A model generated the notes under the pieces. That model searched no databases. It was not told where the DNA came from and saw only the letters and a program-made list of their open reading frames with translations. From a virus (Duplodnaviria > Caudoviricetes), in the IMG/VR virus record IMGVR_UViG_3300011334_000293, positions 1 through 33,774 of that record: DNA of 33,774 bases, one strand, 5' to 3'. This document shows, piece by piece, positions 2,946 to 8,502 of the stretch (positions within the stretch are counted from its first letter, which is position 1; each line of letters opens with the position of its first letter). The translations under genes and the position numbers were made by a program.

Positions 2946-3677
2946 TTATTTATTTATATCAATTACAAAACCGGTTAAATCTTTTTTTGCTTTGCCCTTT
3001 GCCTTTAATCCTACTATCACGTTTTTTTCGTCGTAGTATCTTAAATCGCTTTCATCTCCGTTAATTACTTTATATCCTTTATATGTTAGTGGTAATTCGT
3101 TTTTAAACACTATAGCTACATTACCGCCATTTTTTAAAACGTCTAAAACGTTTGAATCGTTAATTTCTGAACGTGAAAACGTTATTTTATAGTTAGTATT
3201 TAAATATTTTGATACAATTTTAGGATTTTTTGTGTAATCGTAAAACTTCAAATTTCTATTATAAAAGTCATCTAAAAAATTAATACCTGAATACCTTTCT
3301 ATTAATGCTAAATGATCTATATCTGAAGTACCATTTAAGCGAATAGCAATGTCGATATTTTGCTTTATTGCTTTATCGTGTATTTTGAGTAATTCATTGG
3401 CTAATTGAATGTAAAATTTAGGTCTATCCTCTTTAAAAATTAATGTTTTATTTAATCTTGCAAGTTGTACACTATTGAATTGGCCATGGCCAGAAGTATT
3501 TAAACATCCTAAAATGCAACCCGGAGAAGCATAAGGGCAAATATTTATACCGGATAAATTAGAGGGTGCAAGGTAAAGGATGTACGTTTTAATCGCATTT
3601 TTAGATGTTTTAGCATTGGTCTTGCCGTCGCTGAGTAGGTTTTTAACTGCTTTGTAATTTGATGTAGCTTGTAACAT
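2946..3677 (-). CDS. Gp88-family (radical-SAM-like, Fe-S) phage protein
   Basis: CPYASPGCILGC cysteine cluster plus RLNGTSD, FYDYTK, ITFSRSE, NGDESDLR and VGLKAKG motifs, recalled from Gp88-like phage proteins. Confidence 0.7.
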   Translation of the reverse strand: MLQATSNYKAVKNLLSDGKTNAKTSKNAIKTYILYLAPSNLSGINICPYASPGCILGCLNTSGHGQFNSVQLARLNKTLIFKEDRPKFYIQLANELLKIHDKAIKQNIDIAIRLNGTSDIDHLALIERYSGINFLDDFYNRNLKFYDYTKNPKIVSKYLNTNYKITFSRSEINDSNVLDVLKNGGNVAIVFKNELPLTYKGYKVINGDESDLRYYDEKNVIVGLKAKGKAKKDLTGFVIDINK

Positions 3678-5063: not shown

Positions 5064-7022
5064 ATGGACGCAAAACTCCAAACAAACAAGGTCTACGAAA
5101 TCCTTGCTGACTCCGATAAAAGAATTACTGTTATGCAGGGCGGCTCAAGATCGGGCAAGACGTACAACATCCTTATTTGGTTCATCGTAAAGCTTCTCCA
5201 AGAAACGGGCATGACGCTCACAATCGTCCGGCAATCGCTTCCATCTATAAAAGGTACAGTCCTTCGTGACTTTATTGACATTCTCGTCAAACTAAACATC
5301 TATTCTGAGGACAATCACAACAAAACTGACCAGATTTATTCGCTAAATGGCAATATCATCGAGTTTGTGAGTGCTGATCAACCTCAAAAAATACGTGGAC
5401 GCGCAAGAAACTATCTTTTCTGCAATGAGGCTAATGAACTCTCTTATGAGGCTTGGATGCAGCTAATTATGCGTACTGAGGGCAAAATAGTGATAGACTA
5501 CAATCCTTCTGACGTTTCATCATGGATTTATGATAATGTTATACCGAGAGATGACTCAGATTTCCATATCACAACTTTTATGGACAATCCATTCCTTCCA
5601 AAAGAGTTGATTGACGAACTTACCCGTTTGAAGGACGCAGATCCTAACTACTGGCAGATTTATGGCTTGGGTGAACGAGGACTCTCACAAGACTTGATTT
5701 ACACGCACTACCGCACAACCGAGAATATGCCGGAGGATGGCCAAGGTGAAACAGTCTATGGGTTGGACTTCGGGTTCAATGTACCATCTGCAATGTGCAA
5801 GGTTGTGTTCTACGATGGTGTGGCTTATGTGCAAGAATTACTTTACGAAACAAGGTTGACCACTAATGACCTTATTGAAAGGGTAAAAACACTTGGTTTA
5901 TCACAAATGGATGAGATTTATTGTGATGCTGCTGAGCCGAAAACCATCGAGGAACTTGTTAGAAATGGCTTCAATGCTAAACCTGCAAATAAGGATGTGA
6001 CTGAGGGAATTAGGTGTGTAAAAGGCACTCCATTGACGATTCATCAAGAATCACTAAATTTGCTAAAGGAACTTAAGAATTATCGGTGGAAAACGGATAG
6101 GAATGGCAATAAGCTTGACCAACCGGTAAAATTTGGAGACCATATCTGTTTTATTGGTGAAACTTTAGTTCGGACTGCGGAAGGTGTTAAAAGAATTGAT
6201 GAAATAACTGATAAGGATTTTGTTTTGACTTCTGATGGATTTAGAAAAGTAAATGAACTCTATGATAACGGAGTGCATCTTGTGGAAAAGTATTTGATGC
6301 AGTTCGATACGTTTGAAGTAATTTTGATTTGTACTCCAAATCATTTAATTAAAACAAACAAAGGATGGACAGAGATTTCGAAATTACAATCGGGGATGAC
6401 AATTTACCTAAACAATTTTACAAAGGAAAGTCATTTAAGCTTCAGTCAGGAGAAAGATACTTTAACAATGGAAGAGATAAAATGCACTGGTTTGTTTGGG
6501 AATGTGAGCGAGGAATTAGACCAAAAGGATTCCACATCCATCATAAAGATGGAAACACATGGAACAATCACATTGACAACCTTGAACTCGTTGAAGCCAA
6601 CAAGCACTTATCAATACATATCAAACAAAGAATCGAACAGAATCCAGAATGGTATGCAGATTTTAGAAAAAAAGGAATTGCAGCAGCACCAGAATGGCAT
6701 AAAAGTGAAGCAGGACTTAAGTGGCATAGTGAACACGCAAAAAGATGTAACTTTGGAAAATTCGAACACGTTCAAGCAAAATGCTTACAATGTGGAAAAG
6801 AATATACCAAAAAATCACAACACGCAAAGTTCTGCCATCAAAACTGCAAAGCTAAAGCACTTAGGTGTAGAAGGAAGTTGGAAGGAAAGAGTTTATGACT
6901 TAAACGTGGAAGAGATGCACGAGTACTTTGCAAATGGTGTACTTGTCCATAATTGTGACGCTTTGAGGTACGGAATATATAGTAAATTAACAATCCCTTC
7001 GGTAACTTGGGGAGTAATATAA
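5064..7022 (+). CDS. terL: Terminase large subunit (PBSX/SPP1-like) containing an intein
   Basis: QGGSRSGKT Walker A, KIRG, FCNEANE Walker B, DYNP, GLDFG nuclease motif. DHI|CDALRY is restored by intein excision (383 aa spliced). Confidence 0.96.
   Translation: MDAKLQTNKVYEILADSDKRITVMQGGSRSGKTYNILIWFIVKLLQETGMTLTIVRQSLPSIKGTVLRDFIDILVKLNIYSEDNHNKTDQIYSLNGNIIEFVSADQPQKIRGRARNYLFCNEANELSYEAWMQLIMRTEGKIVIDYNPSDVSSWIYDNVIPRDDSDFHITTFMDNPFLPKELIDELTRLKDADPNYWQIYGLGERGLSQDLIYTHYRTTENMPEDGQGETVYGLDFGFNVPSAMCKVVFYDGVAYVQELLYETRLTTNDLIERVKTLGLSQMDEIYCDAAEPKTIEELVRNGFNAKPANKDVTEGIRCVKGTPLTIHQESLNLLKELKNYRWKTDRNGNKLDQPVKFGDHICFIGETLVRTAEGVKRIDEITDKDFVLTSDGFRKVNELYDNGVHLVEKYLMQFDTFEVILICTPNHLIKTNKGWTEISKLQSGMTIYLNNFTKESHLSFSQEKDTLTMEEIKCTGLFGNVSEELDQKDSTSIIKMETHGTITLTTLNSLKPTSTYQYISNKESNRIQNGMQILEKKELQQHQNGIKVKQDLSGIVNTQKDVTLENSNTFKQNAYNVEKNIPKNHNTQSSAIKTAKLKHLGVEGSWKERVYDLNVEEMHEYFANGVLVHNCDALRYGIYSKLTIPSVTWGVI
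6293..6326 (+). promoter_or_regulatory. Candidate internal promoter for the nested HNH gene
   Basis: TTTG (6293-6296), 22 nt, TAATTTTG (6319-6326), ending 38 nt upstream of ATG 6365. Confidence 0.4.
6365..6898 (+). CDS. HNH homing endonuclease nested out of frame inside the intein
   Basis: MHWFVWE...PKGFHIHHKDGNTWNNHIDNLELV...H (HNH_3-type) and a C-terminal CLQCGKEY...FCHQNC zinc finger; frame offset +2 relative to terL. Confidence 0.9.
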   Translation: MDRDFEITIGDDNLPKQFYKGKSFKLQSGERYFNNGRDKMHWFVWECERGIRPKGFHIHHKDGNTWNNHIDNLELVEANKHLSIHIKQRIEQNPEWYADFRKKGIAAAPEWHKSEAGLKWHSEHAKRCNFGKFEHVQAKCLQCGKEYTKKSQHAKFCHQNCKAKALRCRRKLEGKSL

Positions 7023-7029
7023 ATAGAAA

Positions 7030-8502
7030 ATGGGTTTATTCGACATATTTAGTAAAAAAGGTCTTAATCCAAATGTGCAATTTAACCAAGAACTCCGTTA
7101 TCTAAATGGTGCAGTCCTTCAGAACTACCAAAGTGGTGCGTATGTCAATGAGGGGTATCTTGGGAATGCTGATGTTTATGCTATTGTGAGCTTCCTTGCG
7201 CGTAAATGCGCTTCCATTCCTTGGTACGTTTACCGGCTTAATGATACAGAGAAGGGGCGAACTTCATTAATGAAATACAAGCAACTCTCTAAAGGTATAG
7301 CCAACAAAGGTGCATTCGAGAGAGCCATCATCGAGAGGAAAAATGCTTATTCGGAAAATATTGTGATGGGCAGTCCACTTGCTAATCTCCTCGAAAATCC
7401 AAACAAAAACCAATCTCAAGACCAATTCTTTGAGAATCTTTTTGGATATCGCTTCCTAAGCGGTGAAGGTGACATTTATGGCAATGATGGCAATTTGGGT
7501 GGAAAATTCCTTGAGCTAAATGTTTTACCTACTCATTTCCTTGATATTTATGCAGACCCAAACGATTTGTATAATGTCCTTGGTTATAAGCTTATGGTTG
7601 GCCAAGGCATTGACCTACCGAAGGATAAAGTGATGATGTGGAAAACATGGAACCCTGATTTCAATGCAACCACTCGTTCCCACATGAGAGGTGTTTCTCC
7701 AATGAGGGCATCATACTCTACCCTCCGGATGAGCAACAATGCTGCCGACGCTTCGGCCATGATGGCCCAGAATGGAGGAGCAAAGGGAGCGATTACCCCA
7801 AAGCCAATTGGTTCAAATGTTGCTACGTTCACCGTTGAACAAGCAAACATGATAAAAAGGGCGGTCAATGAGGACATGAACGGAATTGACAACAAGGGAA
7901 GGATAAATGTCCTGCAAACTCCTTGGGACTATCTTAATTTTGGTTTGTCATCTGTTGACATGGACTTGGTTAAGACGATGCAGATGTCAATGCACCAATG
8001 GTGCAGGGTATTTGGTTTACCGGCAGTAATTTTTGATACCGATACATCAAGCTACAACAACTACCAAAATGCGATGAGGGACTTAATGACTAACACAGTC
8101 ATCCCAACTTGTGCATCGCTTCGTGATGAGCTTAATAAGTGGCTTGTACCACGTTTTGGAGAAAATGTGTATATTGACTTTGATATTACGGCACTTCCGG
8201 AGATGCAGCAAGATATGGAGCGTATGTCGCGCATACTTCGTGATGCTAATTGGTTGACTTATGACGAGAAGCGAGTGGCAATGAATTACGAGGAGTTGGG
8301 TGGTGCTTATGCTACATCTTACGTATCAAATGGTCTGATTCCAATCGACCAAGTATTAATGGACTTAACTATGACTGATGGACAAAATGATAACATCGAC
8401 AACAACGGATCAGGAAATATGGACGATAGTGATGACGAGATTCCCGAAGATACCAACGGAGCGAACGTGCCGAACGGAGCAGAGGATGAGAATGGAAGTT
8501 AG
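7030..8502 (+). CDS. Portal protein (HK97 family)
   Basis: Follows terL; VYAIVSFLARKCASIPW, LLENPN, GVSP, VFGLP, SYNN and LTYDEKR motifs. Confidence 0.93.
   Translation: MGLFDIFSKKGLNPNVQFNQELRYLNGAVLQNYQSGAYVNEGYLGNADVYAIVSFLARKCASIPWYVYRLNDTEKGRTSLMKYKQLSKGIANKGAFERAIIERKNAYSENIVMGSPLANLLENPNKNQSQDQFFENLFGYRFLSGEGDIYGNDGNLGGKFLELNVLPTHFLDIYADPNDLYNVLGYKLMVGQGIDLPKDKVMMWKTWNPDFNATTRSHMRGVSPMRASYSTLRMSNNAADASAMMAQNGGAKGAITPKPIGSNVATFTVEQANMIKRAVNEDMNGIDNKGRINVLQTPWDYLNFGLSSVDMDLVKTMQMSMHQWCRVFGLPAVIFDTDTSSYNNYQNAMRDLMTNTVIPTCASLRDELNKWLVPRFGENVYIDFDITALPEMQQDMERMSRILRDANWLTYDEKRVAMNYEELGGAYATSYVSNGLIPIDQVLMDLTMTDGQNDNIDNNGSGNMDDSDDEIPEDTNGANVPNGAEDENGS

What the first reader, a model, noticed from the sequence alone, without database searches (positions are those of the whole stretch)
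6147..6953. Dual-coding intein: homing endonuclease encoded in a different frame from the splicing domain
Seen: terL carries a complete intein (blocks A, B, F, G, +1 Cys) inserted in the nuclease motif DHI|CDALRY. The ~177 in-frame residues between blocks B and F are S/T/N/K/Q-rich filler with no endonuclease motif. The +2 frame (6365-6898) encodes an intact HNH endonuclease with a zinc finger. Both frames are stop-free over 534 nt of AT-rich DNA; a rough composition estimate puts the chance of this at about 1e-6. Known: canonical inteins carry the endonuclease in frame. I recall out-of-frame cases being reported in actinobacteriophages, but I do not know of them in Bacteroidetes phages. Inference: a free-standing HNH gene invaded a mini-intein, is translated separately, and uses protein splicing to remove its shadow peptide from the essential terminase.
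Basis: partly seen in the sequence, partly recalled or inferred. Interest (0 to 1): 0.88.

Follow-up and report, generated by a model that had tools for sequence, protein, structure and literature searches.

The report
Intein hiding a self-regulating nuclease gene
This phage's DNA-packaging gene carries an intein (a protein insert predicted to cut itself out) whose DNA also spells, in a second reading frame, a complete nuclease gene that likely has its own promoter, likely spreads the insert to insert-free phages, and likely switches itself off at built-in copies of its predicted target.

Summary
Confirmed. terL (5064-7022) holds a contiguous class-1 intein (6147-6953). An intact HNH_3/Cys4 ORF (6365-6898) lies in frame +2. 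The chance of the open intein frame is about 1e-3, not 1e-6. Homologs settle it: 98 of 143 related loci are nested out of frame, none in frame. pN/pS is 0.36-0.48 in the HNH frame and 1.0-1.1 in the intein frame. 79 of 80 close terL alleles lack the intein.

The layout is known (Gosselin 2025, Phillips 2026), and this scan noted it in at least 24 other genomes.

New here: the N-terminal splicing region also carries a conserved start codon, a Bacteroidetes-type promoter box, and two inverted copies of the terL D-A-L-R-Y codons that follow the insertion site. That pattern occurs three times in the window (chance 0.11). Such copies recur in three frames and in non-coding DNA across the family and are absent from control inteins, which points to an I-TevI-like operator and names the likely target. 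The same HNH family also occurs free-standing, between split-intein halves, fused in frame, and probably in an intron at this motif. Splicing, expression, cleavage and repression are untested.

The parts
5064..7022 (+). terL, large terminase precursor, 652 aa (N-extein 5064-6146, C-extein 6954-7019)
   Evidence: Terminase_3 E 9e-23; phrog_2
6147..6953 (+). Contiguous class-1 intein, 269 aa, inserted at H-I|C-D of the C-terminal H-x-x-D-A-L-R-Y motif
6147..6419 (+). N-terminal Hint part (residues 1-91, blocks A and B); also carries the target copies, promoter box and HNH start
6265..6279 (-). Inverted copy of the terL target codons (reads D-A-L-R-Y on the minus strand); likely second operator site
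   Evidence: 7-nt core kept in 23 of 27 and 25 of 39 held-out loci, full score in only 6 of 27 and 5 of 39
6293..6296 (+). Possible -33 box TTTG (22 nt from the -7 box; weak)
   Evidence: consensus from PMC6847099
6296..6310 (+). Forward copy of the terL target codons (D-A-V-R-Y in frame +2, upstream of a stop, so not translated); likely operator
6319..6326 (+). Bacteroidetes-type -7 promoter box TAnnTTTG, 46 nt before the HNH start
   Evidence: same position in 19 of 27 and 21 of 47 held-out loci
6365..6898 (+). HNH_3 endonuclease with C-terminal Cys4 zinc finger, 177 aa, frame +2 relative to the intein; ATG made from the block-B Trp codon, stop from block-F Tyr-Asp
6420..6830 (+). Low-confidence shadow linker of the intein frame (residues 92-228)
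   Evidence: pLDDT <50; pN/pS about 1
6831..6953 (+). C-terminal Hint part (residues 229-269, blocks F and G); first 22 codons overlap the HNH end
6954..6983 (+). C-extein stretch foreign to the closest intein-free alleles (likely co-conversion tract), supplying +1 Cys and holding the D-A-L-R-Y codons (6957-6971), the predicted recognition site
   Evidence: 16-20 of 30 nt identical to four close alleles here, 30 of 30 in the next 30 nt for three of them

Best explanation
This is a composite selfish element: a contiguous intein in the terminase gene whose DNA also encodes, in frame +2, an intact HNH nuclease that is likely made as a separate protein from its own promoter, is predicted to cut intein-free terL alleles near the D-A-L-R-Y codons, and likely represses its own promoter by binding copies of that sequence. 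Steps: (1) Shown: both frames are open and the intein has all class-1 residues. Inferred: splicing removes the 269 residues, shadow linker included, and yields a 383-aa terminase. (2) Inferred from conserved signals: a short transcript starts just after the -7 box at 6319-6326 and the HNH is translated from the ATG at 6365, with no frameshift. (3) Inferred: the nuclease binds the D-x-x-R-Y codons and cuts on the upstream side, so an intein inserted just before them leaves the binding site but separates it from the cut site; repair copies the intein plus about 20-30 nt of flank, including +1 Cys. (4) Inferred by analogy to I-TevI: the copies at 6296-6310 and 6265-6279 are bound but not cut, and block the promoter. 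(5) Inferred origin: the HNH began as a free-standing gene behind terL and was captured, with its promoter and target copy, by inteins at that motif more than once.
For: Architecture: 92 of 143 loci nested +2, 6 nested +1, none in frame; after removing near-copies 71 and 5 of 114; 77 of 87 further loci with an intein N-part nested +2. Stops: nested +2 genes have 0 intein-frame stops where 310 are expected (zero by construction of the class, but the median single-gene chance is 3e-3); the null is calibrated, with 1338 vs 1218 in the third frame and 110 vs 96 in intein-free genes. Selection: pN/pS HNH frame 0.48 (351 pairs) and 0.36 (27 close pairs), intein frame 1.02 and 1.12; of 31 alleles in four related runs, 12 are silent in the HNH frame, 4 in the intein frame, none makes an intein-frame stop. 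Start: the codon before Trp ends in A in 27 of 27 across six different codons (background 0.45 and 0.83); ATG within 10 codons of the last stop in 68 of 76; A at -13 in 27 of 27 and -12 in 25 of 27. Promoter and target copy at synonymous sites: TCG 14/15 (background 10%), TTC 20/22 (32%), GAT 21/21 (62%), GTA 14/17 (33%), TTG 21/25 (22%); AAC 25/27 (46%), GGA 22/27 (31%). A matrix from 74 terL target 15-mers scores above the 99th percentile of 429 control windows in 23/27, 22/49, 6/6, 12/18, 3/9 and 1/1 loci of the six groups, against 0-2.8% of shuffles; 0 of 8 other inteins (DNA) and 0 of 26 other intein segments (protein) carry the motif; several free-standing genes have a second, non-coding copy. 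Held-out loci: motif in 35 of 58. Mobility: 79 of 80 close terL alleles are intein-free and their +1 residue is Cys in only 5; bounded foreign tract; splicing domain 60-61% identical where exteins are 24-26%; a related contig differs at 21 of 621 sites over the HNH part but 159 of 2099 overall. Multiple capture: AU test rejects one clade for the +2 genes (p 0.015).
Against: No experiment and no expression data. The -33 box is weak (22-nt spacer) and TAnnTTTG occurs 27 times on the + strand of the window. The target copy is not universal: below threshold in 27 of 49 other +2 loci and 6 of 9 split loci, strict motif missing in 23 of 58 held-out loci, -7 box missing in 26 of 47. Two mini-inteins that lost the HNH still keep the copy (L335, L346). 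Of the 120 composite-motif hits fetched, 23 are upstream of this HNH, 40 were classed as the end of a long terL-like ORF, 52 were other and 5 too short. Some 'free' hits are terL's own site (L026). Conserved counts are not independent (shared ancestry). The tree is short (156 columns), mostly weakly supported and unrooted. A few homologs look decayed (L110 HNH open only 102 aa; L016 has no ATG). Lower divergence over the HNH part could partly reflect double constraint. Structural support for the nuclease family is modest (I-HmuI: E 6e-5 by profile, Foldseek E 0.02, Z 6.0). 10 of 76 nested inteins were not placed at a D-x-x-R-Y motif.
Confidence: 0.72

Rival explanations
1. Dual coding, separate expression and homing are real, but the target copies are only a fossil: a piece of a terL 3' end captured together with the HNH gene, or an RNA stem, with no repressor role.
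For: In the window's clade the copy and the -7 box lie in the same register as a terL tail; one terL clade produces the same composite motif from its own coding sequence. L130 shows a duplicated terL end around a free-standing HNH. The two inverted copies can pair as RNA. Derived mini-inteins keep the copy.
Against: Synonymous sites are otherwise near saturation (pS 0.57 in the N-part) yet the copy is held. It recurs in three frames, at different distances, in non-coding DNA and on both strands, next to host-appropriate promoter boxes. The RNA stem is weak (z -1.75; 12 of 200 shuffles as good) and most lineages have one copy only.
Confidence: 0.17
2. The HNH is made by a programmed -1 ribosomal frameshift from the intein frame, as a TerL-N/IntN-HNH fusion, not by internal initiation.
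For: Frame +2 equals -1. Natural IntN-HNH fusions exist in the family (P0036-P0038).
Against: A canonical slippery heptamer in the usable window is present in 5 of 76 loci and not in this one; the HNH frame opens only 4 codons before its ATG. A frameshift does not explain the conserved ATG, A-rich leader, Shine-Dalgarno-like sites in 15 of 76 loci, or promoter box.
Confidence: 0.04
3. The HNH is a packaging helper of the terminase (like the small HNH proteins beside terminase genes in cos phages, recalled) that happens to lie inside the intein, not a homing nuclease.
For: The family is almost always inside or beside terL.
Against: 79 of 80 close relatives have neither the intein nor room for the gene between terL and portal (gap 4-7 nt in 77). 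The foreign flank tract and the extein/intein mismatch point to mobility.
Confidence: 0.04
4. An ordinary in-frame HNH intein broken by two compensating frameshifts, or an assembly error.
For: One complete in-frame TerL intein with this HNH family exists (P0039).
Against: The HNH has its own conserved start and stop; the layout is shared by 76 distinct loci; contigs from other studies show no indel; P0039's N-part resembles the split-intein lineage, not this one (by eye).
Confidence: 0.01

Closest known systems
Actinobacteriophage non-canonical inteins with an endonuclease VII-like HEN in frame 3 (Gosselin, Arsenault, Gogarten; bioRxiv 10.1101/2025.01.02.630785; abstract, passages, sections 8 and 15 read)
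   Same: Contiguous phage intein, HEN in the same-sense third frame, unstructured in-frame middle, proposed origin by invasion of a free-standing HEN; TerL is among the hosts of their non-canonical inteins.
   Different: Nuclease family here is HNH_3 plus Cys4 finger; hosts span several phyla; the main text has no occurrence of 'promoter' or 'operator'. Their supplements were closed, so overlap with their list (for example TJE1, an actinobacterial phage) could not be checked.
Cyanobacterial dnaX intein with +2 LAGLIDADG HEN (Phillips, DeSimone, Gogarten; bioRxiv 10.64898/2026.09.14.751524; abstract and passages read)
   Same: +2 ORF, frame-dependent selection, coexisting intein-free, mini and full alleles.
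   Different: Chromosomal gene, LAGLIDADG nuclease; no promoter or operator mentioned.
I-TevI operator and autorepression in phage T4 (reviewed in PMC2988022; passages read)
   Same: A copy of the homing site overlaps the endonuclease's own promoter.
   Different: I-TevI is a GIY-YIG enzyme in a group I intron and was tested. Here the copies are written over the codons of an intein splicing domain, come as an inverted pair, and are untested.
Fractured genes: split inteins with a free-standing endonuclease between the halves (Dassa et al. 2009, PMC2677866; passages read)
   Same: Relatives of this HNH sit between split-intein halves at the same terL motif (L027 phage CL2, L093-L096, L115, L120, L124).
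   Different: The window's intein is contiguous. Their model lists split, in-frame, free-standing and intron outcomes; the passages read do not include the out-of-frame contiguous outcome, which is the commonest in my (search-biased) set.
ShiLan out-of-frame HNH insertion in a phage methylase (Arsenault et al. 2025, PMC11855218; abstract and section 4.3 read)
   Same: Hidden HNH in another frame of a stop-free insertion.
   Different: ShiLan has no splicing domain; here a full intein removes the shadow peptide.
I-HmuI HNH homing endonuclease (PDB 1u3e)
   Same: Best solved relative by profile and by fold, over the N-terminal half.
   Different: Match is weak and covers residues 1-91 only; the C-terminal half here is two helices and a Cys4 finger.
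Mycobacteriophage TerL inteins (Kelley et al. 2016, PMC5050341; passages read)
   Same: Same host protein; those inteins were shown to splice and, for two, to cut intein-free alleles.
   Different: All seven of their sites are in the ATPase domain; this one is 22 residues from the C-terminus, in the nuclease domain.

Membership tests
Class-1 cis-splicing intein | C1, block-B TxxH, block-F Asp, terminal His-Asn, +1 Cys/Ser/Thr in one ORF | tested here: met
Class-1 cis-splicing intein | Hint fold | tested here: met
   (38 matches at E<=0.001; those listed are intein or Hint structures)
Class-1 cis-splicing intein | Protein splicing occurs | not testable with these tools
   inferred from motifs and from TerL being essential (established knowledge)
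Canonical homing intein | Endonuclease in frame between blocks B and F | tested here: not met
Out-of-frame HEN inteins (Gosselin 2025; Phillips 2026) | Contiguous intein ORF with an intact HEN in another frame and an unstructured in-frame middle | tested here: met
Out-of-frame HEN inteins (Gosselin 2025; Phillips 2026) | Purifying selection in the HEN frame; patchy distribution | tested here: met
Out-of-frame HEN inteins (Gosselin 2025; Phillips 2026) | Nuclease of the described types (endonuclease VII-like, LAGLIDADG, VSR-like) | tested here: not met
   Pfam gives HNH_3 only at E<=0.1; all ten PHROG matches are HNH or intron-like endonuclease. So it works like them but is not one of the described families.
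HNH homing endonuclease (I-HmuI-like) | Intact H-N-H catalytic motif | tested here: met
   H59, H60, N68, N72, H81 invariant in 36 sequences
HNH homing endonuclease (I-HmuI-like) | Overall fold like I-HmuI | tested here: inconclusive
   Z 6.0, rmsd 4.1, 79 aligned; Foldseek E 0.02
HNH homing endonuclease (I-HmuI-like) | Cleaves the element-free allele | not testable with these tools
   indirect only:
I-TevI-type autorepression operator | Target-like sequence overlapping the endonuclease promoter | tested here: met
   (promoter itself predicted from consensus)
I-TevI-type autorepression operator | Binding without cleavage, and repression | not testable with these tools
   no assay possible
Fractured gene / split intein (Dassa 2009) | Intein halves in separate ORFs | tested here: not met
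   window ORF is contiguous; met by relatives such as L027
ShiLan-type insertion | No self-splicing domain | tested here: not met

The most novel reading that the evidence does not exclude
A complete self-regulating gene (promoter, inverted operator pair copied from its own target, leader, start codon, nuclease ORF) is written over an intein, so one stretch of DNA encodes a folded splicing domain and a control region at once. One HNH family aimed at the terL D-A-L-R-Y codons has been captured repeatedly, in two different frames, and survives today in free-standing, intron, split-intein, nested and in-frame forms: a living series for how mobile inteins arise, with the target already named by the operator.
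Probability: 0.55. Interest if true: 0.8.

Novelty: new variant of a known kind. Interest (0 to 1): 0.62.

Why it matters
Out-of-frame inteins were called rare and are missed by annotation: four GenBank phage records with this layout list only the terminase. This family shows the layout in at least 76 distinct phage and prophage loci from several phyla. It also answers, at the level of sequence, how a hidden nuclease could be expressed and kept in check, which the papers read leave open. Because the operator copy predicts the recognition sequence, and free-standing, split, nested and in-frame forms share one site, the old question whether splicing domain and endonuclease arose separately and merged ('collaborative homing', PMC2988022; 'splicing first', Gosselin section 15) becomes directly testable with a few purified proteins and short DNA substrates.

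Tried and rejected
Folded filler: no Pfam or PDB match, pLDDT <50. Frameshift signal: no slippery heptamer here; the start region folds no better than shuffles (z 0.58). Sigma-70 promoter scan of 6100-7100: 3 sites, 3.1 expected, as expected for a non-sigma-70 host. Expression: no RNA holder listed. Direct intein-free twin in the four runs laid first: no joint skipping 6147-6953; one loose end reads like an intein-free relative. Rfam found no group I intron in L032 or six other loci, so that call rests on motifs seen by eye. RNA stem of the two inverted copies: z -1.75, not convincing. AU test for the +1 group did not finish. Wide fold search gave no match above Z 6; the C-terminal half was not folded alone. 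Host: terL relatives among annotated phages are under 36% identical, so Bacteroidetes rests on 0 of 32 genes with a Shine-Dalgarno-like site, A-rich leaders and the promoter box. No tRNA genes. Literature searches for this family or for an operator in a dual-coding intein found nothing beyond the papers named: (open-licence PMC and bioRxiv only). PMC12613952 and PMC11878797 were seen as search listings only.
Full report
Observation. The window is a 33.8-kb phage record, estimated 97% complete, with terminase, portal, protease and capsid genes in order. terL (5064-7022, 652 aa) holds a 269-aa intein at 6147-6953 between DHI and CDALRY. A 177-aa ORF at 6365-6898 in frame +2 matches HNH_3 (E 7e-11) while the in-frame middle matches nothing at E<=0.001. 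AlphaFold builds a confident Hint domain from residues 1-91 and 229-269 and nothing confident from 92-228; the HNH model is confident (pLDDT 89) and its best solved relative is I-HmuI, weakly. So the shadow linker is about 137 aa, and about 40 codons encode folded protein in both frames. Given the HNH sequence and local codon usage, 5.1 intein-frame stops are expected and P(none) is 1.2e-3. A contig from another study spans the region with no indel in the intein.

Family. HNH searches gave 143 loci, the window included, with an HNH profile score of 70 or more; weaker loci were dropped. 92 are nested +2 in a contiguous intein, 6 nested +1, 13 split or broken, 21 without intein, 11 partial, none in frame. 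After removing near-copies and short matches: 71, 5, 8, 19 and 11 of 114. [quoted passage not shown] These proportions reflect the search patterns and are not frequencies in nature. GenBank records phiCDHM19, LS06-2018-MD07, TJE1 and Highwayman have the nested layout with the HNH unannotated. In 66 of 76 distinct nested loci the intein sits within a few codons of the D-x-x-R-Y motif, at several different positions. A protein search for longer forms found one complete in-frame intein and three IntN-HNH fusions. Free-standing relatives lie between terL and portal, antisense there or before terS. Phage CL2 has the split form. EauM-23 probably has it in a group I intron at the same motif (Rfam negative).

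Selection. In the 27 distinct members of the window's clade, uncorrected pN/pS over the overlap is 0.48 (all 351 pairs) and 0.36 (27 close pairs) in the HNH frame, and 1.02 and 1.12 in the intein frame; the N-part gives 0.54 and 0.38, the C-end 0.22 and 0.11. In the last 29 overlap codons third-position change drops from 0.35 to 0.24, as expected where both frames matter. Of the 40 allele rows shown (4 more not shown) I used the 31 inside the ORF, leaving out four from one short divergent contig and five outside the ORF: 12 are silent in the HNH frame, 4 in the intein frame, none makes an intein-frame stop. The stop model is calibrated on controls (1338 seen vs 1218 expected in the third frame; 110 vs 96 in intein-free genes). 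It also explains the frame bias: about 4 stops per gene are expected in the frame used by the +2 class and about 17 in the other, and two GC-rich free-standing genes already have one alternative frame open (L033, L035).

Mobility. 79 of the 80 closest terL alleles (85-96% identity) lack the intein, and only 5 of them have Cys at +1. Against the nearest alleles the first 30 nt after the intein match at 16-20 of 30 and the next 30 at 30 of 30 in three of four, the pattern of a short co-conversion tract. Splicing domains 60-61% identical sit in exteins 24-26% identical. Related contigs differ about 9% in terL but about 3% over the HNH part; double constraint may contribute.

Separate expression. 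The ATG is made from the last base of one codon and the block-B Trp codon; that base is A in 27 of 27 members across six codons, and the ATG is present in 44 of 47 held-out loci with that Trp. Across all 76 nested loci an ATG lies within 10 codons of the last stop in 68; a slippery heptamer is present in 5, not here. Leaders are A-rich at -12 and -13, as in Flavobacterium (PMC6847099, passages). TAnnTTTG, the Bacteroidetes -7 box, lies 46 nt upstream in 19 of 27 and 21 of 47, at synonymous sites that depart strongly from codon usage. The -33 box is weak.

Target copies. The pattern of the D-A-L-R-Y codons occurs three times in the whole window against 0.11 expected: at the terL site after the intein (6957-6971), forward at 6296-6310 and inverted at 6265-6279. 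A D-x-[LIVMFA]-R-Y coding pattern lies near the HNH start in 18 of 27, 14 of 53, 6 of 6, 6 of 18, 2 of 9 and 0 of 1 loci of the six groups, against 10 of 3725 background windows, in three different frames. A matrix built from 74 terL sites gives 23/27, 22/49, 6/6, 12/18, 3/9 and 1/1, with shuffles at 0-2.8%; other inteins show 0 of 8 and 0 of 26; several free-standing genes carry a second copy in non-coding DNA next to a promoter-like box. Held-out loci show it in 35 of 58. The inverted copy keeps its 7-nt core in 23 of 27 and 25 of 39 but scores fully in only 6 of 27 and 5 of 39. Against: it is missing in many loci, two derived mini-inteins keep it, and an unbiased scan returned 23 of 120 hits upstream of this HNH, none in an intein without it, and the rest at terL's own site or elsewhere. 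A DNA motif that copies the insertion-site sequence and overlaps the nuclease's promoter is the arrangement shown for I-TevI (PMC2988022, passages). I infer an operator; binding is untested.

Origin. On the HNH tree the architectures are interleaved; starred branches force at least 3 changes for the +2 class (70 rows, a subsample of 118) and an AU test rejects one clade (p 0.015). The copy's position and frame differ between lineages. Repeated capture of a free-standing, terL-targeting gene is the simplest reading, but the tree is unrooted and losses also occur.

Comparison. The layout is known from actinophages (endonuclease VII-like, frame 3) and cyanobacterial dnaX (LAGLIDADG, +2); hidden HNH genes without splicing and split-intein forms are known too. 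This element works like those but has a different nuclease, a nuclease-domain site unlike the ATPase sites, and a predicted control region that neither preprint's main text mentions (their supplements were closed and may list overlapping members). Searches found no paper on this family. This scan recorded the dual-coding layout in at least 24 other genomes and operator-like copies for split-intein and free-standing nucleases; one word search for the combination returned nothing.

Verdict. Real, selected and most likely mobile; a new variant of a known kind. Interest 0.62.

Noticed in passing
L032:2302-3209 (Exiguobacterium phage vB_EauM-23): Probable unannotated group I intron in the same terL motif carrying this HNH family; core-like motifs at 2402 and 3136, U and G at the ends, and the 3' piece reads DATRY. 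Rfam gives no hit.
   Followed up: partly
L011, L012, L080, L091, L092, L103, L104: HNH nested in the other frame (+1), where 12-17 stops are expected and none is seen; two well-supported groups on the tree.
   Followed up: partly
L335, L346, L356, L358: Mini-inteins (129-141 aa) at the same motif. L335 and L346 keep the target copy and ATG, so they look derived by HNH loss; L356 and L358 lack the forward copy.
   Followed up: partly
L130:2905-3742: Free-standing HNH flanked by two copies of the terL 3' end, one before and one after, with one alternative frame open across it.
   Followed up: partly
L030 (phage phiCD119 record), about 1743-1920: Same element as phiCDHM19 but the terL and HNH frames are broken in this record; decay or sequencing error.
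   Followed up: no
L133, L140, L141, L155, L363, L366: Nested HNH inteins whose flanks differ from the D-x-x-R-Y motif, suggesting other insertion sites.
   Followed up: no
L009, L010, L017, L018, L023, L084: HNH proteins of 255-273 aa with what looks like a duplicated, degenerate N-terminal HNH-like unit, still fully nested.
   Followed up: no
L038, L110, L140: A second intein elsewhere in these loci; in L038 it follows the terL Walker A sequence.
   Followed up: no
window 2946-3677 (-): GP88-family gene (PF17338, E 4.5e-37) on the opposite strand ahead of the packaging genes.
   Followed up: no
L374, L375, L379 and others: A terL clade whose own C-terminal codons spell the target followed by a TAnnTTTG box in the same spacing as the window's cassette.
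   Followed up: partly
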